NCBI GenBank assembly: GCA_903835255.1
Contig: CAILMI010000055.1
Span: forward strand, 75,244 to 139,243
Length of the DNA: 64,000 nucleotides
Reading direction: 5' to 3'
Source: an uncultured Verrucomicrobia subdivision 3 bacterium
GTDB taxonomy: Bacteria; Verrucomicrobiota; Verrucomicrobiia; Limisphaerales; UBA11358
Shown: in pieces, positions 26,922 to 38,268 of the stretch
Position numbering within the stretch: the first letter of the stretch is position 1
Layout: every line of letters starts with the position of its first letter
Notes under the pieces: model-generated
Seen by the model: only the letters and a program-made list of their open reading frames with translations
What the model was told of the DNA's origin: nothing
Databases searched by the model: none
Program-made: the position numbers and the translations under genes

Positions 26922-29720
<2,799 letters not shown>

Positions 29721-30030
29721 GTAACAGTGAGAGTCTTATGCTGCGCGACGGCGGTTGCGCAACTTAATTTTTTTTCCAAACACACCCATTCCAACTGCGG
29801 CGCGAGACGGACCAACACGAAAGCGTGACGCGAATCCCGCTCATTTCTGGGAATATCCCAACCGGAATTCAATTGCCGGCAATCCCTCCCATCCCCGTCA
29901 TTGCGTTGAGTTTTTTACTGTTCCAATCTCTCCTCGTTGGCCGTGACCTCTCACCGTCGAAAATATCTCCGCGCGCCAGGCAATCGCCCTCCGGCATTGA
30001 TTAACGGCGGGACTTGCCTAAAATGGGCTT

Positions 30031-31539
30031 GTGAAATCAACCGTTTATCTGGTCGGCGCCGGGCCGGGCGATGCCCGCCTGCTCACCCTGCGCGGCGCGG
30101 AACTGCTCCGGCGCGCCGACGTGGTCATCTATGATGCGCTCGCCAACCCGGAACTGCTCCGGCTCGCGCCGCCCACCGCGGAATTTGTTTCGCGCGGCAA
30201 AAATATGTCCATGCCGCAGGCGGAAATCACCGCGCTCATCATTCAGCGGGCCCGGGCGGGCAAAACCGTGGTGCGGCTCAAGGGCGGGGACCCCTTTGTC
30301 TTTGGCCGGGGCGGCGAGGAAGCCGAGGCGCTCGCAGCCGAAAAAATCCCCTTTGAGATCGTGCCCGGGGTTTCCTCCATCACTGCGGTGCCCAACTATG
30401 CCGGCATTCCCCTGACCCACCGCGAGCACTGCTCCAGCTTCACGGTGTTCACCGGGCACAGCGACTCCACCGAGCAAGCCACGGCGCTGCGCTATGATCA
30501 AATCGCCAAAATCCCAGGGACCAAGGTGGTGCTGATGGGCACGGAACGGCTCGAGGAGTGGTCCCAATCGCTGATCGCGAACGGCATGTCGGCGCAAACG
30601 CCCATCGCGGTCATCCATCGCGGCACGACCGGCCGGCAGAAAGCCGTGACCGGCACGCTCGCCACCATCGCCGCGCTGGCGGCCAAGGAAAAAATTGCCC
30701 CCCCGGCCCTGACCATACTCGGCGACGTGGTGAAGTTGCGCGGCAAATTGAACTGGTTCGAAAACCGCCCGCTCTTCGGCCGCCGCATTGTGGTGACCCG
30801 GCGCACCGAACAGGCGGGGTCCTTTGCACACCGGCTCGCGGAACTGGGCGCAGACGTCCTCGAAGTGCCCACCATCAAGATCACCACGCCGCTTGAGAAG
30901 GATGCCATCGTGGATTGCTTGCTGGAGCTCAACTCCTACGACTGGCTGGTGTTCACCAGCGCCAATGGCGTGACCATGTTCTTCGATATCTTCTTCCGCC
31001 GCTTCCAGGATCTGCGCGATCTCGGCGGAGCGCGCATTGCTGCGGTCGGCCCCGCCACGGCGGCCAAGCTGCGCGAACTGCACCTGCAGGTGGACCTGAC
31101 CCCGGAGGAATTCACCGGTCGAAAGATTGCCGAGGCGTTCAAGAAATATCAGGACATCGAGAACGTGAAGATGTGCCTGCTACGCGCGGAAGTGGCGAAC
31201 CGGGATTTGCCGGACGCGCTCGCCGAACTGGGGGCCATCGTGGACGACATCGCCATCTACAAGACGGTGCCTGAAACGGAAGATCACGGCGGCGCCTGCG
31301 AGCGCCTGCTGGAGGAGGGCGCAGACTGGGTGACCTTCACAAGCAGCTCGACGGTGGAGCATTTCCACGCGCGCTTCGACCTGCCCAAGCTGATAAAAAA
31401 ATTCCCCGCACTTAAAATCGCATCCATCGGTCCGGAGACGAGCAAGGCGATTGCGGCTCTCAAGCTCAAGCCGGCGCTCGAAGCAAAAGAGCACACGACG
31501 GACGGACTGATCGCGGCACTGCTCAAGGCGGCGAAATGA
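30031..31539 (+). CDS. cobA: uroporphyrinogen-III C-methyltransferase fused to uroporphyrinogen-III synthase
   Basis: The gene has a GTG start. VYLVGAGPGDARLLTLRGAELLRRADVVIYDAL is the SUMT signature. The second half (GRRIVVTRRTEQAGSFAHRLAELGADVLEVPTI...) is HemD-like. Confidence 0.9.
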   Translation: MKSTVYLVGAGPGDARLLTLRGAELLRRADVVIYDALANPELLRLAPPTAEFVSRGKNMSMPQAEITALIIQRARAGKTVVRLKGGDPFVFGRGGEEAEALAAEKIPFEIVPGVSSITAVPNYAGIPLTHREHCSSFTVFTGHSDSTEQATALRYDQIAKIPGTKVVLMGTERLEEWSQSLIANGMSAQTPIAVIHRGTTGRQKAVTGTLATIAALAAKEKIAPPALTILGDVVKLRGKLNWFENRPLFGRRIVVTRRTEQAGSFAHRLAELGADVLEVPTIKITTPLEKDAIVDCLLELNSYDWLVFTSANGVTMFFDIFFRRFQDLRDLGGARIAAVGPATAAKLRELHLQVDLTPEEFTGRKIAEAFKKYQDIENVKMCLLRAEVANRDLPDALAELGAIVDDIAIYKTVPETEDHGGACERLLEEGADWVTFTSSSTVEHFHARFDLPKLIKKFPALKIASIGPETSKAIAALKLKPALEAKEHTTDGLIAALLKAAK

Positions 31540-31832: not shown

Positions 31833-34220
31833 TCAGAAAAAACTTCGCCCGGGGCGATGGGGATTTTCAGGCTGCATGATTCCGGGCGTCCCCTCCTCAG
31901 CGGGGAGGTATTGCAAGATGCCAGGCCAGCCGTTTTGAATCCATGCTTCGGTCATTTTACCCAACGTGTCGCCGGATGACCCGAGATGCTCTCGGGCGGC
32001 CTGTCCGGCAGCCTGGGGATCTTTCTCCGCCCAGCATTGGAACAGGAGCTGATACGTCCGCTCGTCGGGCGCGGGTTGCAACTCATTCAACCGGGCCAGC
32101 GTGTTTTGAGGATTGTCTGCCGCCAATGCCGGGATGATTTCTCCCAAGGCGCGCGCCCGGGAACCGGCATCCGGCATCTGACAGACCCAGTTGAAGGCTC
32201 CGGGCAAATCCCTCTTCATCCAATCCTCCAGCACGGCGAGTTGAAAATAGGTTGCGGAATCACTCGCCCCCTGCTCGTTCACAATCGTTCCCTCAATGCC
32301 GCTGGCGCTGGCCATGGCAGTTAGGGGATTCTCCCACCCCAGCCGGACCAGTAGCCACTTCTGAAAATGGCTGCGTTGTGAATCATTCAAAATGACCGAG
32401 GACATCTTGAGGGCTTCGGGTATCTGCTCCCGCGGAATCGCCGCCGCCAACTGATCGAGGCTGCGTCGCCGGCTGCCATCGCGCTCCGCCCCCCCGATAT
32501 CCCCCAGCACCTGCCGAATCCGTGCCGAATCCAACGCTCCGGTTGCCAGATCGTAATCGCCGGCCGCTTCCGCAGCTGCCCGGTCGAGCGTCTGACGGGC
32601 AACCTGGCGTTGCCGCATGGCTTGGCTGGCGGCCAGCAGGGACAGCACCGCCAAGAGCGCCAGAGCCCCGGTGAGCCGCCGCGCATTCCGGGTTCTTTTT
32701 TGGGCCTCCTGAATCTGGCTTTGAACTTCCTGACCCACATTCCGGGACTGACTTTGGATTTCAAGAAGCCGGCTCTGCGCGTCGCTGGCTTGAGCCTGCG
32801 CTTCCAGAATCCTATTTTGCGCCTCACGCGCTTGAATGCGGGCCGCCTCCAGCTCGCGCTGCACCTCTATGAATTTGCCGTCATCGCCCGCACCTTGATT
32901 GTTTTTTTCTTCAAGCTGACGCTGGAGGCTCTGCGCCTCCCGGACCTGGTTTCGAGCCGCCTCCAGTTGATTCTGCACTTCCAGGACCTTGCTTTCGGCA
33001 GCAAGCGCCCGGTTATGGGCCTCCTCCCATTGAGCGTGCGCGGACCGGGCCTGATTCTGAAATTCCTGAATCTGACTTTTGGCCTCCAGCAATGGGTCCT
33101 GGCCGTCCCCAGCGGGGCTGCGAGCCCCCTCGGGTTGGCTCGAGGAATGCGGCACCTCACGGGCCTGATGGCGGGTCTGCTCCAGTTGGCCCTGCACTTC
33201 ACGGGAGAAAGCTTGTGCTTCCAATACTTTATTTTCTGCTGCGCGAGCCCGTTCGCGGGCCTCCTCCAGCTGGGCCTGGGTGTCCCGGACCTTATTTTGT
33301 AATTCCAGAAGCTGTTGCTGGGCGGCATGGGTCTGGTTCAGGGCTTCTTGAGCCTGATGGTGCGCCTCCTGAATCTGGCCTTGAACATCGCGCGGGAGAT
33401 TTTGCGTTTCCAAAACCTGATTCTGCGCCTCGCGAATTTGACGCTGCGCTTCCTGCAACTGACGCCGTGCCTCCTCCACCTGGTTGACCGCTGTGCGGAC
33501 TTGCTCCTGGGCGTCAGCAAAATCATGGAAGTGGCGTTTTTGCTCACGCCACCACAGCCCGTTAAATCCGACCCCGATCAGCAGGGCGATCAGATGAATC
33601 TTGGCCCTCTCTAAATCAGCTTGGGCGGGCCGATGATCGTTTGCCAGAATTTCCCGTTTTTCATCGCCGTACCGGGCATCCACAAAAAGGCATCGGCCCG
33701 CGCGCCGGGTGAGATCGATCGCTCCATCCGACCCCACCGGGTGACGCAATGCGGGAACAAAACACTCGTCTTCAGGGGAGGCGCCCGCCTTGCTTCCATC
33801 GCTGGCATGCGGTTCGCCCGACACCACAATCGGCAGAATATTTCGACTGCGACCGAGCTGCTTGAAATAGCGAACGGCTTCATTCACCCGAACGTTTTGA
33901 GCCGAGCGGGGCGAACAGATCACCACCAGGCAGAGGGACTGCTCCAACGCCCTGCGATCCTCCGCGGTCAGGGCGGCCTCGTCGGACAGTCCCGACTCTT
34001 CCCCGAAAAAAGGGTGAATTCGATCCGGAATGATCTCGCCCCGACCATTGACCTGGCCGACGAAATCCGCCGGGATAGAAAAAGTCTTTAGCGCCTCGTG
34101 CAACCAATTGCCCCAACACAGGCGGCTCACCTCCTGAGGGCTGGGGCTGGGGCGCTGATCGCGATTGTCCTGGCTACTAAAACTAAGGAACGCTAAATAT
34201 TTATTATCGGCACCGGTCAT
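31833..34220 (-). CDS. TIR-like domain / long heptad coiled-coil / single-TM / helical-repeat protein (795 aa)
   Basis: Residues ~7-135 are YLAFLSFSSQDNRD...IHPFFGEESGLSD...CLVVICSPRSAQNVRVNEAVRYF...ILPIVVSGEP, which I recognise as the TIR_2-type pattern. Residues ~235-512 form three blocks of (E/D)(A/V/T)QxQxx heptads. Residues 516-534 (LTGALALLAVLSLLAASQA) form a TM helix flanked by KRTRNARR. Residues 535-795 carry W..(K/E)DP..A-type helical repeats. Confidence 0.8.
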   Translation of the reverse strand: MTGADNKYLAFLSFSSQDNRDQRPSPSPQEVSRLCWGNWLHEALKTFSIPADFVGQVNGRGEIIPDRIHPFFGEESGLSDEAALTAEDRRALEQSLCLVVICSPRSAQNVRVNEAVRYFKQLGRSRNILPIVVSGEPHASDGSKAGASPEDECFVPALRHPVGSDGAIDLTRRAGRCLFVDARYGDEKREILANDHRPAQADLERAKIHLIALLIGVGFNGLWWREQKRHFHDFADAQEQVRTAVNQVEEARRQLQEAQRQIREAQNQVLETQNLPRDVQGQIQEAHHQAQEALNQTHAAQQQLLELQNKVRDTQAQLEEARERARAAENKVLEAQAFSREVQGQLEQTRHQAREVPHSSSQPEGARSPAGDGQDPLLEAKSQIQEFQNQARSAHAQWEEAHNRALAAESKVLEVQNQLEAARNQVREAQSLQRQLEEKNNQGAGDDGKFIEVQRELEAARIQAREAQNRILEAQAQASDAQSRLLEIQSQSRNVGQEVQSQIQEAQKRTRNARRLTGALALLAVLSLLAASQAMRQRQVARQTLDRAAAEAAGDYDLATGALDSARIRQVLGDIGGAERDGSRRRSLDQLAAAIPREQIPEALKMSSVILNDSQRSHFQKWLLVRLGWENPLTAMASASGIEGTIVNEQGASDSATYFQLAVLEDWMKRDLPGAFNWVCQMPDAGSRARALGEIIPALAADNPQNTLARLNELQPAPDERTYQLLFQCWAEKDPQAAGQAAREHLGSSGDTLGKMTEAWIQNGWPGILQYLPAEEGTPGIMQPENPHRPGRSFF

Positions 34221-34482
34221 AATGACGCGTGAGGTTTCAATGGAACAAGGCTGGGGGTTTTTGTGCGGGAAGAGGTCCTGCGCAACTGGTCCGAAACAGA
34301 GGCGGATCCGGAGAACCCCTTCTGCGGGGACGAGCAGATGCGTCCTCTCATGAGGGGATTCCTCGCGAGAGGAAAACCTCTATCACACTTTTATCTAAGG
34401 GATGAATAGAAACCATTGCCCGGGTACGATGATGGCGGTTCAATGACACCATGGATTGAGAGCGGTTCTGGCAGAAGCTCGG

Positions 34483-37400
34483 TTAATGTGTCGGGTTAGG
34501 TTCGGACGAGGCCGGCGGCAATGCATCCACCGGTTCATCCATTTTCACCAGCGGCGTGCCGGCGGTGGCGGTCTGCGTCTCGTTCGCCTTGTGGAATTTG
34601 ACGCTGACAATCTTGCTGACGCCGTGCTCCTCCATGGTGACGCCGTAGAGCACATCGGCCATGCCGATGGTGCGCTTATTGTGCGTGATGATAATGAACT
34701 GGGACTGCAGGATGAAGCGCTGCAGCACCCGCACGAAGCGGTTGATGTTGGACTCATCGAGCGGCGCATCCAATTCATCCAGCACGCAGAACGGACTGGG
34801 CTTGACCTGATAGATCGAAAACAGCAGCGACACGGCCACCATCGTCTGCTCGCCGCCGGACAGCAGGGAAATGCCCTGCAATTGCTTGCCCGGAGGGCGC
34901 GCGACGATATCAATGCCGCTTTCCAGCACGTCGTTTTCATCGGCCAGAACCAGGTCCGCCTTGCCGCCGCCGAACACGTCGGTGAACATCGCCCGGAAAT
35001 TGTCCCGGATGCGTTCAAACGTGGCCAGGAACATCTCGCGCGTCTGAGTGTTGATGCGGTTGATAACCTCCAGCAGCTGCGTCTTGGCATTGACCAGGTC
35101 GTCATGCTGCTGCGTCAGGAAAGTGTGGCGCTGCTCGGTCTCCTCGTATTCCTCGATCGCCACGAGGTTCACCGGCCCGATCTCATCGAGCCGTTTCTGC
35201 AGGGTCTCGATCTGCTGGCCCACGGCGCTCCAATCGGTCGCCGCCCCGGCCGCCGCCATCTGTTCGGGCGAGAGCGTCTCCACCTGAGCAGGGCCTTCGT
35301 CGGCGTAGGTGATGGTGATGCACTCGCTGCGGATGTCTTCGAGATTGAGATGATATTTCTGCTGCATCTTCTCGCGCAGGTTCTGCACCGTCATACTTTT
35401 CTGCGCCAGCCCCACATCCACGGCGCCGCGTTGATTCTGCAGGTCCGACAGGCGGCTACGCTGCAAACGCAGGTTTTCCTCGCGCGCGCCGATATCGGAA
35501 TCCTGCGCGTTTTTCTGGCTGATTAACTCCGCCGCCAGGGCGTTGACCTGATCGCGGTCGTGCTGCAAACGCCCAATTTGCGAGCGGGATTCCTCCATCT
35601 CGGACCCCGCCTGCTCCTGACGCGCCACGAACGAGGAGCACTCCCCCCGCCGCTGCTCGACGATCTGGGTCAGCTCGCGGATGCGCTGTGCCAGCGCCGA
35701 CTGCTGCTGCTGGAATGAGGCGCTCAACTGCTCGTCTGCCGCCAGCGCGACTTTGCTTTCCGTGAGCGTGGCGTTGGCCGCGTCGCGCTGCAGCCGGAGG
35801 CTTTCCAGTTCCGCCGTCAGCGCGATCACCTGCTCCTGGCTGGACTGCTCCCGCGCCTCCAATTCACCCAGCCGCAGGGTGAGAGCTTCCCGTTTCTGGA
35901 GCCCCTCCTGCTCTTGCGCGGCGAGGCTCTGCACCTCAAAAACCACCGTCTCAATTTTCTGATGCAGCAAGCGGTTGGAATTATTCAGCGCATTGAACTC
36001 GCCTTCGCGCGTGGCGATGGCGACTTCCTGTTCGCGCAATTCCGTCTGAGCCTGCTGCAGGCTCGCCTGCAATTCCGTCTGCTCGCTCAAAAGCGCTCCC
36101 CGCTTGCGGCTGACTTCCTCCACCTGCAGCTGCAGCCCGGCGAGTTCCGCCTGTAATTCGAGGATTTGGTTCTTGCGGCCGAGAATAGAGGAAGGCGCCT
36201 TGCCGTTGCCGCTGCCATTAAAATAACCGCCGGTGTAAATGCCATGGCGATTCAACAGGTCCCCCGCGAGCGTCACAAAATCGCAGCCCGCATGGCCATT
36301 TTGGATTTGCGTCGTCGCCGTGGGCAGATCGGCGGCAATGAACGTGCGGCCCAAAAGCGATCTCAGCAGCGGCTCCACCGAGGGCTCGGCGTGGATCACG
36401 CTCATCGCGTGCACAATCTGGCCGGCAGGCAAACCCGATTGCGCAGCGTCAAACTTTTCGCTGGGAGCCATTTCCCCGGCGAAGGCGAGCTGCTTCTCGT
36501 CCTGATACTGCTGAATGGCCAGCGCAGCCACGCTCGCGCGCCCGGATTTGTTCGCGCTCAAGTCCGCGAGGATTTCCTGGGCGGATTCCGGACGGTCGGT
36601 CAGGACCAGCTGCAGATTGTGGCCCAGCGCATTTTCCACAGCGGTCACAAATTGGTCCGGCACGCGAATGCGGTCCGCCAGCGAGCCGAGAACCGAGCGC
36701 GACTGCCGCAGGGCCGCCACCGCGCCGGCGCCGAATCCTTCGTGCGCCCCCTCGAGCTGCTCCAGCACGGTAAGGCGCGAATGCTTTTCCGCCTGCTGCT
36801 TGAGCGAGCGATCCTGCTCCACCGACGACGCCTGTAATTCCGACTGCAATTGGCCCAGTCGGTTCTGCCGCTGCTCGACCGAGCCGCGCGTGGTCGCGAC
36901 GTTCAATTTTTCGACCTCGACGCTCGCGGTAAATTCCTGCATCCGCACTTCCAAACCGGCGCGCTCGACTTCCAGCTGGATTTTTTCGGCGGAAAGCTTT
37001 TCCAGGCGGATGACATTGCCCTGCTTCTGCAGGTCCATCGCGGCGATTTCATTGCGGAGACGGGACAGGTCCTGGGCCGCAGCGAACGCCTCCGACTGCG
37101 CGCGGCGCAGTTCTTCCTGGCGCTGGCGCAAGCCTTCCTCGACCGCGCGCAGGGCTTCGTGCTTGGCCGATAAATTCTCCTGGTGCTGCGCCAAGGCAGC
37201 CTCGGCCACGGCCAGGCGTTCGGTGACGGTGATCAGCTCGCTCGAAGCCGCGTGGCAGCGTTCCTCGGCCTGGGCGATCTCCGCGAGCGCCCGGGCGTTT
37301 TGGGATTCGATCTCGCGCAGACGCTCCTCGTTGAAGTGGATGCGGCTCTCGTGCCGGTCCATTTCGCCCTTCAACTCCAGCCCGCGCTGCTGCTGCGCAG

Positions 37401-38268
37401 CCACCTCGCGCTCCAGATCCGATAGCCGGTCGCGCAGCTCTTTGATCTCATCTTCAAAACGCAGCACGTCGGCGGAACCGGTTTCAATTTCGCCGCGCAA
37501 GGTTTCAGCAGCAGCCTGCTTTTCAGCAATCTCCGATTGCAACACGTCGAACTGATGCCGCGCCATCTGCGTGTCGAGGTGCTGCAGCTCCAGGGTGATC
37601 TGCTTGTACCGCTTGGCCTTCCCGGCCTGCCGCTGCAGCGACCCAATCTGCCGCTTCACCTCCCGGATGAGATCGGCGATGCGCAGCAAGTTCTGCTCGG
37701 TGTATTCCAGCTTGCGCAGCGATTCCTTTTTCTGCGCCTTGAATTTGGTGATGCCCGCCGCCTCCTCGAAAATCATCCGGCGATCCTCCGGCTTGCTGGA
37801 CAGAATCTGCGTGATGTGCCCCTGCGCCAGAATGCTGTAGCTCGTGCGGCCGATGCCGGTGCCCATGAAAAACTGCTGGATATCCTTGAGCCGGCACGGA
37901 ACTTTATTGATGAAATACTCGCTGCCGCCATCGCGGAAAATCCGGCGCGTGATCGTCACCTCGCTGTAATTCACCTCCACACCCGCCGCCCGCAAATGCT
38001 CCTCATCCACATCCCCCAGCGTCAGCGAGACTTCGCACATCCCCATCGGTTTGCGTCCGTCCGTGCCGTTGAAAATGACGTCCGCCATCTCACCGCCCCG
38101 CAACGCCTTGGCCGACTGCTCCCCCAGCACCCAGCGGATGGCGTCCGAGACGTTGGACTTGCCGCAGCCGTTGGGCCCCACAATCGCCGTGACTCCCGGT
38201 TGAAAATTCAACGCCGTCTTATCCGCAAACGATTTGAAGCCGAAAACGGTTAAATTTTTGAGGTACAT
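34483..38268 (-). CDS. smc: chromosome segregation protein SMC
   Basis: The 1261-aa protein has a Walker A motif (GPNGCGKSNVSDAIRWVLGEQS), long coiled coils, a hinge, and a C-terminal signature plus Walker B (LSGGEQTMVAVSLLFSIY...PFCVLDELDAPLD). Confidence 0.95.
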   Translation of the reverse strand: MYLKNLTVFGFKSFADKTALNFQPGVTAIVGPNGCGKSNVSDAIRWVLGEQSAKALRGGEMADVIFNGTDGRKPMGMCEVSLTLGDVDEEHLRAAGVEVNYSEVTITRRIFRDGGSEYFINKVPCRLKDIQQFFMGTGIGRTSYSILAQGHITQILSSKPEDRRMIFEEAAGITKFKAQKKESLRKLEYTEQNLLRIADLIREVKRQIGSLQRQAGKAKRYKQITLELQHLDTQMARHQFDVLQSEIAEKQAAAETLRGEIETGSADVLRFEDEIKELRDRLSDLEREVAAQQQRGLELKGEMDRHESRIHFNEERLREIESQNARALAEIAQAEERCHAASSELITVTERLAVAEAALAQHQENLSAKHEALRAVEEGLRQRQEELRRAQSEAFAAAQDLSRLRNEIAAMDLQKQGNVIRLEKLSAEKIQLEVERAGLEVRMQEFTASVEVEKLNVATTRGSVEQRQNRLGQLQSELQASSVEQDRSLKQQAEKHSRLTVLEQLEGAHEGFGAGAVAALRQSRSVLGSLADRIRVPDQFVTAVENALGHNLQLVLTDRPESAQEILADLSANKSGRASVAALAIQQYQDEKQLAFAGEMAPSEKFDAAQSGLPAGQIVHAMSVIHAEPSVEPLLRSLLGRTFIAADLPTATTQIQNGHAGCDFVTLAGDLLNRHGIYTGGYFNGSGNGKAPSSILGRKNQILELQAELAGLQLQVEEVSRKRGALLSEQTELQASLQQAQTELREQEVAIATREGEFNALNNSNRLLHQKIETVVFEVQSLAAQEQEGLQKREALTLRLGELEAREQSSQEQVIALTAELESLRLQRDAANATLTESKVALAADEQLSASFQQQQSALAQRIRELTQIVEQRRGECSSFVARQEQAGSEMEESRSQIGRLQHDRDQVNALAAELISQKNAQDSDIGAREENLRLQRSRLSDLQNQRGAVDVGLAQKSMTVQNLREKMQQKYHLNLEDIRSECITITYADEGPAQVETLSPEQMAAAGAATDWSAVGQQIETLQKRLDEIGPVNLVAIEEYEETEQRHTFLTQQHDDLVNAKTQLLEVINRINTQTREMFLATFERIRDNFRAMFTDVFGGGKADLVLADENDVLESGIDIVARPPGKQLQGISLLSGGEQTMVAVSLLFSIYQVKPSPFCVLDELDAPLDESNINRFVRVLQRFILQSQFIIITHNKRTIGMADVLYGVTMEEHGVSKIVSVKFHKANETQTATAGTPLVKMDEPVDALPPASSEPNPTH

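What the first reader, a model, noticed from the sequence alone, without database searches (positions are those of the whole stretch)
31833..34220. Membrane-anchored TIR-like protein with a ~280-residue heptad stalk, inserted between smc and cobA-hemD
The 795-aa ORF has an architecture I cannot match to a described family as a whole.
- Residues ~7-135 read as a TIR_2-type domain: YLAFLSFSSQDN (betaA), IHPFFGEESGLS (betaB, with a Glu pair where NAD-cleaving TIRs carry their catalytic Glu), and CLVVICSPRSAQNVRVNEA...ILPIVV.
- Residues ~150-230 carry the FVPAL...DAR...IHLIALLIGVGFNGLWWREQKR segment that I have seen following TIR domains in multidomain bacterial TIR proteins.
- Residues 235-512 form about 30 heptads in three blocks.
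- Residues 516-534 form one TM helix, preceded by KRTRNARR.
- The 260-aa C-terminal domain is built of W..(K/E)DP..A helical repeats and is probably extracytoplasmic.

This looks like a receptor in which a sensor, a TM helix and a rigid stalk are coupled to a TIR effector. Bacterial TIR domains are established NAD+-consuming or signal-producing immune effectors (for example Thoeris and CBASS-associated TIRs). Here the gene is a lone insert in a housekeeping neighbourhood, 262 nt downstream of smc.
Basis: partly seen in the sequence, partly recalled or inferred. Interest (0 to 1): 0.7.

Follow-up and report, generated by a model that had tools for sequence, protein, structure and literature searches.

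The report
Membrane-anchored TIR protein lacking catalytic glutamate
This is a real 795-residue membrane protein with a TIR-type head, a long coiled-coil stalk, one membrane helix and an outward-facing helical-repeat domain, but its lineage has lost the glutamate that NAD-cleaving TIR enzymes need and the partner gene its relatives carry, so it is probably a repurposed receptor or scaffold and not a classical NAD-depleting immune effector.

Summary

- **TIR head:** residues ~7-135 are a TIR domain. The window protein alone scores below Pfam threshold, but all 22 relatives hit TIR_2, and Foldseek's top hits are almost all TIR domains.
- **Other parts:** a family-specific extension runs to ~232. 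Three heptad blocks cover ~233-512, and one TM helix lies at ~513-535. The C-terminal alpha-solenoid repeat occurs elsewhere mostly behind N-terminal signal/anchor segments or in ECF-sigma-TM fusions, so it is probably periplasmic.

- **Catalytic site:** E74/E75 lie in the BB-loop region, and E75 is Gly in 12 of 13 near-identical variants. The canonical W...E pair on helix alphaC falls at positions 111 and 115, which are Arg and Ala here. About 50 members of this Verrucomicrobia subdivision 3 clade lack that Glu, while every outgroup member listed keeps it.
- **"Lone insert":** GC matches the flanks, two relatives keep the gene in the same interval, and it is single-copy in about 33 species.

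Twenty outgroup loci (TIR-TM-WD40/TPR) carry a neighbouring gene whose product ends in a SLATT domain in some loci; one also has a patatin gene. None of this clade's loci do.

Best reading: a derived TIR receptor or scaffold that does not use the canonical catalytic site. A remodelled active site (E114/Y118) is not excluded.

The parts
31833..34220 (-). Whole ORF, 795 aa plus stop codon
   Evidence: The exact protein is on 16 public metagenome contigs. Its 90% cluster has 25 members, all named 'hypothetical protein' or unnamed.
33816..34202 (-). TIR core, residues 7-135 (betaA YLAFLSFS, BB-loop region 70-84, betaC LCLVVICSP, alphaC 110-121, betaD ILPIVV)
   Evidence: Pfam hits in the window protein and its family. 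AF2 model and Foldseek TIR hits. Profile alignment to plant TIR structures.
33858..33896 (-). alphaC motif, residues 109-121 (N-V-R-V-N-E114-A115-V-R-Y118-F-K-Q). The canonical W and E positions (111, 115) are Arg and Ala. A clade-specific conserved face is formed by E114, R117, Y118 and Q121.
   Evidence: Canonical W71/E75 ligand-binding pair as described in PMC7075850.
33525..33815 (-). Family-specific extension of the TIR module, residues 136-232: GEP, ECFVPALRHP, LFVDAR (probable betaE), and the amphipathic helix AKIHLIALLIGVGFNGLWWREQKR
   Evidence: Conserved across 47 diverse members. Modelled with pLDDT 73-94 and packed into one domain, pTM 0.81.
32685..33524 (-). Coiled-coil stalk, residues 233-512, rich in Q/A/E/R. 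Three heptad blocks are separated by linkers at residues 357-376 (window 33093-33152) and 441-448 (window 32877-32900).
   Evidence: The hits to Tropomyosin, SMC, JetC and LmuB cover the coiled coil only.
32619..32675 (-). Single transmembrane helix, residues ~516-534, preceded by KRTRNARR
   Evidence: Hydropathy scan, with the same position in every clade member.
31836..32615 (-). C-terminal alpha-solenoid repeat domain, residues 536-795, probably periplasmic. The last ~25 residues are disordered.
   Evidence: AF2 model all-alpha. Foldseek gives only generic ARM/TPR-like hits, E>0.06. The profile finds 3480 representative proteins, mostly behind an N-terminal anchor or in ECF-sigma-TM fusions.
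34221..34482 (-). 262-nt spacer between the smc stop codon and the start codon of this gene
   Evidence: No sigma-70-like promoter was found, and terminator-like sites are at chance level.

Best explanation
**What it is.** A single-pass, N-in/C-out inner-membrane protein of a Verrucomicrobia subdivision 3 (Limisphaerales-type) lineage. It descends from a widespread family of membrane-anchored TIR proteins with the layout TIR module - TM - periplasmic WD40 or TPR. Elsewhere that family keeps the canonical W...E catalytic pair. At 20 of its loci it sits beside a partner gene, which carries a SLATT domain in the two loci scanned, and one locus also has a patatin gene. That arrangement resembles Thoeris-like TIR signalling.

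**What changed in this lineage (shown).**
- A cytoplasmic coiled coil of roughly 150-600 residues was inserted between the TIR module and the TM helix.
- The outer domain is a helical repeat that occurs elsewhere mostly behind N-terminal membrane anchors or in ECF-sigma-TM fusions.
- The partner gene is gone.
- The canonical catalytic Glu and Trp, and several other residues invariant in the outgroup, are lost.
- A new conserved face appeared on helix alphaC (E114, R117, Y118, Q121).

**Most likely mechanism (inferred).**
- The coiled coil makes a parallel dimer or trimer.
- The outer solenoid binds an envelope or external ligand.
- The stalk, up to ~37 nm if fully extended, relays or positions the TIR-derived heads.
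- The heads act by TIR-type assembly or by binding a partner through the new alphaC face, not by canonical NAD+ cleavage.
For: - **TIR identity:**
- **Loss of catalytic residues:** W/Y111 and E115 are missing from every clade sequence listed and present in every outgroup sequence listed. The region aligns without gaps.
- **Relaxed outgroup-invariant residues and gained clade-specific ones:**
- **E74/E75 variable within 90%-identical variants:**
- **Partner gene:** it is at 20 outgroup loci and at none of the clade loci or the window. Its product hits SLATT_1 above Pfam's cutoff in L045 (30.9 bits) and just below it in L046 (24.6 bits against 26.3). A patatin effector sits in L045.
- **Topology:** the same repeat follows N-terminal anchors in 88 of 109 proteins and follows ECF sigma plus a TM helix in three.
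- **Vertical, single-copy inheritance:** one clade copy per genome in about 33 species representatives. GC matches the flanks. The gene lies in the same smc...cobA-hemD interval in L005 and, as far as that contig reaches, L006. Divergence tracks SMC (r=0.88, 15 non-independent pairs).
- **Neighbourhoods:** housekeeping genes in every clade locus whose neighbours were annotated.
Against: - E114 is kept in all but one clade member (L034 has VNAVV). Together with Y118, which is specific to the clade, it could form a remodelled acid-plus-aromatic site one notch round the same helix, so enzymatic activity is not excluded.
- I could not inspect model coordinates.
- The protein evolves fast relative to SMC (SMC 95% identity against TIR module 77% and C-terminus 64%). 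The stalk length also varies widely, with the TM helix at residue 382 to 845. Both are typical of conflict genes.
- No interacting partner, ligand or phenotype is known.
- A partner gene could lie elsewhere in the genome, because only +/-10 kb was visible.
Confidence: 0.45

Rival explanations
1. It is still an NAD+-processing TIR effector or signal generator. In this reading the outer solenoid senses a threat such as phage or envelope damage, the stalk drives TIR clustering, and a remodelled site (E114 with Y118 in place of W111/E115) cleaves NAD+ for abortive infection or signalling.
For: - E114 is conserved in all but one clade sequence listed, and Y118 in 90%, spaced i, i+4 on alphaC next to the canonical pocket face.
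- The rest of the TIR core, including the CSPRSA and FKxLGR motifs, is strongly conserved.
- The ancestral family looks like a defence system.
- The sequence evolves fast and the stalk length varies.
Against: - The canonical Glu and Trp are absent in all clade members.
- H16, D74, E77, D134 and P177, which are invariant or nearly so in the outgroup, are relaxed.
- One member (L034) lacks both Glu residues.
- No partner effector gene lies nearby.
- The gene is not in a defence island and is single-copy with vertical inheritance.
- No PADLOC TIR-system model matches.
Confidence: 0.28
2. It is a structural membrane tether. In this reading a long cytoplasmic coiled coil anchored in the inner membrane uses the TIR-derived head as a docking knob, for example for nucleoid or cell-organisation factors. 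The hint is that the gene sits at the 3' end of smc in two different orientations.
For: - smc lies within 6 kb in 9 clade loci: the window, L005, L027, L032, L035, L036, L040 and L086/L087.
- The gene is co-directional with smc in the window and L005, and convergent with it in the others.
- The coiled coil is ~280 residues with three blocks.
- Catalytic residues are lost.
Against: - About 17 other clade loci with adequate flanks have no smc nearby.
- No operon partner is conserved.
- A pure tether does not explain the large, variable outer solenoid domain.
- The adjacency may simply reflect synteny among related genomes.
Confidence: 0.1
3. Alternative topology: the hydrophobic helix IHLIALLIGVGFNGLWW (residues 208-224) is a first TM helix. 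The coiled coil would then be periplasmic and the C-terminal solenoid cytoplasmic.
For: The segment is moderately hydrophobic. It passes the KD threshold of 1.6-1.65 in L028 and L030.
Against: - The equivalent helix in outgroup members is charged and amphipathic (LKLIAGMLDVGFDQLKQRE) and is followed by the real TM helix.
- Its residues are conserved like a packed helix (L210, A212, V217, G218, L222).
- AF2 packs it on the TIR core at pLDDT 89-94.
- The solenoid repeat is consistently found after N-terminal anchors elsewhere.
Confidence: 0.05

Closest known systems
Bacterial membrane-anchored TIR proteins with the layout TIR_2 module - TM - WD40/TPR. Examples are the Dyella halodurans NZ_CP064028 loci L050 and L080, and loci from Rhodanobacter, Chthoniobacterales, Acidobacteria and Pirellula MAGs. 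They appear to be uncharacterised.
   Same: The homologous ~230-residue TIR module, including the family-specific extension, is 35-45% identical and aligns without gaps through alphaC. Both have an N-terminal cytoplasmic TIR followed by a single TM helix and a repeat domain.
   Different: - Those proteins keep W/Y111 and E115.
- Their TM helix comes directly after the module, at residue ~200-260.
- They carry WD40 or TPR repeats, not the solenoid.
- They often occur in tandem paralogues.
- Twenty of those loci sit beside the partner gene; one also has a patatin gene.
Thoeris (ThsB TIR signal generator plus ThsA-type sensor/effector)
   Same: The TIR domain matches ThsB_TIR in 21 of 22 relatives. 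The outgroup's pairing with a SLOG-like/SLATT protein resembles the logic of TIR signal plus nucleotide-sensing effector.
   Different: In the window there is no effector gene, no canonical catalytic Glu, and the extra TM helix, coiled coil and outer domain are present. The SLOG assignment of the outgroup partner is weak (ShosA 9e-5, DNA_processg_A 0.012).
Animal Toll-like / IL-1 receptors with adaptor-type TIR domains
   Same: Works-like resemblance: outer repeat domain, single TM helix, cytoplasmic TIR. Animal adaptor TIRs act mainly through protein-protein interaction (PMC7075850).
   Different: - The order along the chain is reversed (TIR at the N-terminus, a type II protein).
- The outer domain is a helical solenoid, not LRR or Ig.
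- A ~280-residue coiled coil intervenes.
- Nothing indicates common descent of the architecture.
ECF-sigma - TM - helical-repeat fusion proteins and N-terminally anchored solenoid proteins (P0120, P0121, P0140 and about 88 others among the best 150 hits)
   Same: They share the C-terminal 'W..DP..A..W...LP.G' alpha-solenoid repeat (hits between 1e-19 and 1e-33) located after a single TM helix or anchor.
   Different: Their cytoplasmic part is an ECF sigma factor or is absent, not a TIR plus coiled coil.

Membership tests
TIR domain superfamily (Pfam TIR_2 PF13676 / ThsB_TIR PF08937) | Profile match above the curated threshold | tested here: inconclusive
   The window protein alone scores 20.2 bits against a gathering score of 28. 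Clade relatives L009 (32 bits) and L027 (30.5 bits) and outgroup relatives (37-55 bits) pass. All 22 members of A1 hit at E<=0.01. Membership therefore rests on homology to members that pass.
TIR domain superfamily | Flavodoxin-like TIR fold (betaA-betaE with alphaA-alphaE) | tested here: met
   The AF2 model has pLDDT 79.8 and pTM 0.81, with strands at 8-13, 70-72, 95-102, 128-133 and 180-182. About 45 of the 50 top Foldseek PDB hits are TIR domains, with prob up to 1.0, best E 3.6e-3 and TM 0.43-0.56 relative to the stand-alone TIR-domain targets.
NAD+-cleaving (enzymatic) TIR domains | Catalytic Glu on alphaC (generic position E75; the E of W-C-L-x-E-L in plant TIRs) | tested here: not met
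   The aligned column is A115. It is A, V, T, I or Q in all of about 50 clade members and E in all outgroup members listed. The neighbouring E114 is conserved but lies one position early.
NAD+-cleaving (enzymatic) TIR domains | Aromatic residue four positions before the Glu (generic W71), lining the ligand pocket | tested here: not met
   R111 in the window, mostly H, Q or R in the clade, and W or Y in the outgroup. Role of W71/E75 per PMC7075850.
NAD+-cleaving (enzymatic) TIR domains | NAD+ hydrolase or cyclase activity | not testable with these tools
   Needs biochemistry.
Thoeris-type TIR signalling system | Adjacent effector gene with a signal-sensing domain (SLOG, Macro or similar) | tested here: not met
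   The neighbours are smc and cobA-hemD. tblastn with the outgroup partner protein finds nothing in the window or in any clade locus. PADLOC gives only coiled-coil noise.
SMC / JetC / LmuB / tropomyosin (from weak HMM hits) | ATPase head or hinge, or full-length match | tested here: not met
   The hits cover only residues ~226-519 and fall far below cutoffs, for example TIGR02168 at 31.7 bits against 567.
Periplasmic alpha-solenoid repeat family shared with ECF-sigma fusions (unnamed; faint Pfam ELYS hits) | Profile similarity of the repeats and a location after a TM helix or anchor | tested here: met
   The A3 profile finds 3480 representative proteins at E<=1e-3 and 785 at E<=1e-10. Architecture shown.

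The most novel reading that the evidence does not exclude
This would be a prokaryotic transmembrane receptor that uses a non-catalytic TIR domain for adaptor-type signalling by assembly, as animal TLR and MyD88 proteins do. It would have evolved from an enzymatic, Thoeris-like membrane TIR by loss of the catalytic pair and the effector partner, gain of a coiled-coil stalk, and gain of a new interaction face on alphaC. A related variant is an enzymatic TIR with a relocated acid/aromatic pair, E114/Y118.
Probability: 0.2. Interest if true: 0.8.

Novelty: new variant of a known kind. Interest (0 to 1): 0.45.

Why it matters
Bacterial TIR domains are currently understood almost entirely as NAD+-cleaving immune enzymes, and scaffold-type TIR signalling is regarded mainly as an animal feature.

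This clade offers a dated, comparative case. A catalytically canonical, membrane-anchored TIR family that often carries a neighbouring partner gene (with a SLATT domain where scanned) gave rise to a single-copy, vertically inherited derivative. That derivative lost the catalytic pair and the partner, yet stayed under constraint and gained a stalk and a new conserved surface.

Testing it would show one of two things. Either bacteria also use TIR domains non-enzymatically in transmembrane signalling, or the TIR active site can be rebuilt with a shifted Glu.

The wider TIR-TM-WD40/TPR family next to a SLOG-like/SLATT gene is itself an apparently undescribed candidate defence system. It has a TLR-like topology.

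Tried and rejected
- **PDB sequence search with the single N-terminal sequence:** no hit. Only profiles gave TIR hits.
- **PADLOC on the full protein:** only JetC/LmuB coiled-coil noise.
- **NCBIfam:** only SMC and other coiled-coil noise.
- **Foldseek of the C-terminal model:** only generic ARM/TPR/HEAT-like matches, E>0.06 and TM<=0.33 relative to the query apart from one weak hit at 0.44, so no specific family.
- **DNA tandem repeats in the stalk:** only one 2-copy 21-nt array within the stalk, so the stalk is not a recent DNA repeat expansion here.
- **Promoter and terminator scan:** uninformative.
- **tRNA and Rfam scans of the whole window:** nothing.
- **Search for a conserved neighbour among clade loci:** none except smc in a subset.
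- **Second copy in the window:** none.
- **Literature searches:** no description of this architecture was found. The E. coli TIR survey remarks that TLR-like membrane features seem absent from bacterial TIR systems.
- **Rejected: E74/E75 as catalytic**.
- **Rejected: residues 208-224 as a TM helix**.
- **Rejected: recent horizontal insertion**.
Full report
**1. The observation**

An ATG-initiated ORF of 795 codons occupies 31833-34220 on the minus strand. Upstream on the same strand, 262 nt away, is smc at 34483-38268 (TIGR02168, 1033 bits). Downstream and convergent is a fused cobA-hemD at 30031-31539. Beyond that lie topB, a hydrolase and a XerC/D-like recombinase. The exact protein is on 16 metagenome contigs. 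Its 90% cluster has 25 members, all unnamed or 'hypothetical protein'.

**2. The N-terminal domain is a TIR**

- The window protein alone is sub-threshold for TIR_2: E=8.7e-4, 20.2 bits against 28, covering residues 84-135. It finds nothing in the PDB by sequence.
- Homologues of residues 1-233 (21 proteins, 38-71% identity) all hit TIR_2 (best 3e-14). Twenty-one of 22 hit ThsB_TIR.
- Longer relatives pass the gathering score.
- The AF2 model built on this alignment (pLDDT 79.8, pTM 0.81) retrieves almost exclusively TIR domains from the PDB: Roq1, RUN1, SARM1, L7, RPV1, MAL, AbTir, EcThsB and SPARTA. Probabilities reach 1.0 and the best E-value is 3.6e-3.
They are conserved across the whole family and fold into the same compact model. 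They probably supply betaE (LFVDAR) and the last helix, so they are an extension of the TIR module and not a separate domain.

**3. The stalk, the TM helix and the outer domain**

- Residues 233-512 show strong 3.5-residue hydrophobic periodicity: 1.71 against 0.15 +/- 0.15 in 1000 shuffles, none reaching it.
- There are three heptad frames, broken by Pro/Gly linkers at residues 357-376 and 441-448.
- The HMM hits to tropomyosin, SMC, JetC and LmuB are confined to this region and are coiled-coil noise.
- A single hydrophobic helix follows KRTRNARR at ~513-535. Every clade member has one at the corresponding place.
- The C-terminal 260 residues are modelled as an all-alpha solenoid (pLDDT 77) with no specific structural relative.
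- A profile of this domain finds 3480 representative proteins, 785 of them at 1e-10.
- Among the best 150, 13 are TIR proteins of this type. Of 109 other full-length proteins, 88 start with a hydrophobic signal/anchor segment, and three are ECF sigma factor - TM - repeat fusions.
- The repeat therefore almost always sits on the far side of a single membrane helix from the cytoplasm. This supports the topology TIR and stalk inside, solenoid outside.
- The alternative, that residues 208-224 form a first TM helix, is unlikely. That helix is charged in outgroup members, conserved like a packed helix, and modelled on the TIR core.

**4. Relatives and the key comparison**

A scan of one genome per species found 516 loci that encode the TIR module. 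I analysed the 78 distinct loci kept from that scan. They fall into two groups.

| Feature | (a) This clade | (b) Outgroup |
|---|---|---|
| Members | About 33 Verrucomicrobia subdivision 3 / Limisphaerales MAGs, one locus per genome | Other Verrucomicrobia, Rhodanobacter/Dyella, Acidobacteria, Pirellula and others |
| Identity to the window module | 55-71% | 35-45% |
| Layout after the TIR module | Coiled coil, TM helix, solenoid; total length 636-1362 aa; TM helix at residue 382-845 | TM helix directly after the module (residue ~200-260), then WD40 propellers or TPRs |

The module aligns without a single gap through residues 92-140 in all 47 aligned sequences.

- **Outgroup motif:** CSPRSAxS.[WY]V.[EQA]E[VI]. 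The W/Y and the second E align with the W and the catalytic E of plant TIRs: W-C-L-D-E-L in 3jrn, W-C-L-M-E-L in L6, W-C-L-E-E-L in Roq1. The same holds for a bacterial TIR-TPR structure, 9m0n. This is the W71/E75 ligand-binding pair of the general TIR numbering (PMC7075850).
- **This clade's motif:** [HQRPA][VLM][ND]E[AVTIQ]V. The window reads R111-V-N-E114-A115-V. The canonical Glu is absent from every clade sequence listed and present in every outgroup sequence listed.
- **Relaxed residues:** further residues invariant or nearly so in the outgroup are relaxed in the clade. These are H16, D74, E77, D134 and P177.
- **Gained residues:** residues conserved only in the clade appear, including E114, R117, Y118 and Q121. 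These lie on one face of alphaC.
- **E74/E75:** E75 is Gly in 12 of 13 variants that are at least 90% identical, and E74 is Asp in two.

**5. Genomic context**

- *Outgroup.* In L044-L048 the outgroup loci carry a neighbouring gene. Its product has an N-terminal domain weakly similar to DprA/ShosA-type SLOG domains. In the two loci scanned (L045, L046) it has a C-terminal SLATT domain: SLATT_1 30.9 bits against a gathering score of 26.3 in L045, and 24.6 bits in L046. A patatin phospholipase gene sits between it and the TIR gene in L045. Tandem TIR-WD40 paralogues occur in L041 and L046.
- *Outgroup partner distribution.* A homologous 560-aa, 4-TM protein lies downstream in 15 further loci, most of them from the Rhodanobacter/Dyella group. 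In total, 20 outgroup loci have this partner.
- *This clade.* No clade locus held and no part of the window has this partner. Clade neighbourhoods are housekeeping or metabolic: PTS, chorismate synthase, RecO, ProRS, GH31, pyruvate carboxylase and smc. No gene is consistently adjacent.
- *smc adjacency.* smc lies at the gene's side in 9 loci. It is co-directional in the window and L005, and convergent in L027, L032, L035, L036, L040 and L086/L087. About 17 other loci lack it.
- *Conserved interval.* In two close relatives (cobA-hemD 89-91% identical) the gene lies ahead of cobA-hemD, and in L005 also after smc. L006 starts inside the gene, so its upstream side is unseen. Extra genes have been inserted after it: an LRR-Roc-COR protein in L005, and GH2, an MFS transporter and DUF5107 in L006.
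- *Composition and inheritance.* GC equals the flanks. Pairwise divergence of the TIR module tracks that of SMC (r=0.88 over 15 non-independent pairs). The gene nevertheless evolves faster: SMC 95% against TIR module 77% and C-terminus 64%.

The gene is therefore a resident, vertically inherited, single-copy but fast-evolving gene. It is not a lone insert.

**6. Interpretation**

*Shown:*
- The domain architecture and the probable N-in/C-out topology.
- Descent from a membrane-anchored TIR family that elsewhere is catalytically canonical and, at 20 loci, paired with a neighbouring partner gene.
- Clade-wide loss of the canonical W/E pair and of the partner.
- Continued constraint, with a new conserved alphaC face.

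*Inferred:*
- The coiled coil oligomerises the protein.
- The outer solenoid binds something.
- The TIR-derived head acts by assembly or partner binding, not by canonical NAD+ cleavage (confidence 0.45).

*Main rival (0.28):* catalysis survives through a shifted Glu (E114) with the newly conserved Y118. On a helical wheel E114 sits about 60 degrees from position 111 and about 100 degrees from position 115. That puts it at the rim of the pocket face, so this cannot be excluded without coordinates or assays. One member (L034, VNAVV) lacks both glutamates.

*Other readings:* a purely structural tether linked to smc (0.10) and an inverted topology (0.05) are less likely.

**7. Comparison with known systems and novelty**

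- The protein belongs to the TIR superfamily by homology and fold.
- It fails the two sequence features that define enzymatic TIRs.
- It lacks the partner gene that defines Thoeris-type systems.
- It works most like a TLR-type receptor (outer repeats, TM helix, cytoplasmic TIR). The chain order is reversed, the repeats differ and a coiled-coil spacer intervenes.
- I found no description of this architecture in the literature searched. A survey of E. coli TIR systems notes that TLR-like membrane features seem absent from bacterial TIR systems.
- I class it as a new variant of a known kind. Interest is moderate (0.45), rising to about 0.8 if the head proves to be a non-catalytic signalling TIR or to carry a rebuilt active site.

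Noticed in passing
L045:7370-12895; L046:49-10580; L044, L047 and L048 are similar: Outgroup Verrucomicrobia loci hold a cluster of a SLOG-like/SLATT 4-TM protein, a patatin phospholipase (in L045) and one or two TIR-TM-WD40 proteins. It looks like an undescribed Thoeris-like defence system with a membrane-anchored, TLR-like TIR component.
   Followed up: partly
L050:12751-14433 and 14 further loci, mostly Rhodanobacter/Dyella relatives (L053-L055, L057, L059, L061, L065, L071, L073, L074, L076, L078, L079, L084): A conserved ~560-aa gene lies downstream of the TIR-TM-TPR gene. It has no Pfam family and 4 predicted TM helices. Its N-terminal ~150 aa are homologous to the N-terminus of the verrucomicrobial SLATT protein, with weak DprA/ShosA (SLOG-superfamily) similarity.
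   Followed up: partly
P0120, P0121, P0140: These proteins fuse an ECF sigma factor (Sigma70_r2 + r4) to a TM helix at ~225-233 and to the same C-terminal helical repeats as the window protein. The repeat seems to be a common outer sensor module, probably of this phylum.
   Followed up: partly
window 34483 (smc stop codon) compared with L027, L035, L036, L040 and L086: The TIR gene abuts the 3' end of smc in two opposite orientations in different sub-clades. It is co-directional in the window and L005, and convergent elsewhere. This suggests an old linkage with a single-gene inversion, or coincidence.
   Followed up: partly
L005:11005-15777 and L006:1937-9859: In close relatives the interval between this gene and cobA-hemD has taken up different cargo. 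L005 has an N_methyl protein, DUF559 and a 966-aa LRR-Roc-COR protein. L006 has GH2, an MFS transporter and DUF5107/TPR. The interval is a variable spot, although the TIR gene itself is resident.
   Followed up: no
window 32685-33524 compared with clade loci: The coiled-coil stalk varies greatly in length between species. The TM helix lies at residue 382 in L020, 513 here and 845 in L022. The TIR module stays 55-71% identical throughout.
   Followed up: partly
window 33621-34091 (+), 156-aa ORF antisense to the TIR-coding region: This ORF gives tblastn hits in nearly all clade loci. It is a shadow of the conserved gene on the opposite strand in GC-rich DNA, not a gene. Long antisense ORFs of the same kind lie inside topB (27813-29828) and smc.
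   Followed up: yes
L001:10001-14032 and L005:4291-8411: The homologue in L001 is split into genes of 223, 415 and 642 aa. The smc of L005 is split into about six pieces. Both records look like frameshift-rich long-read assemblies, so short 'TIR-only' proteins such as P0008 and P0014 are probably artefacts.
   Followed up: partly
window 30031-31539 (+): Fused uroporphyrinogen-III C-methyltransferase / uroporphyrinogen-III synthase (cobA-hemD) with a GTG start. It is 89-91% identical in L005 and L006.
   Followed up: no
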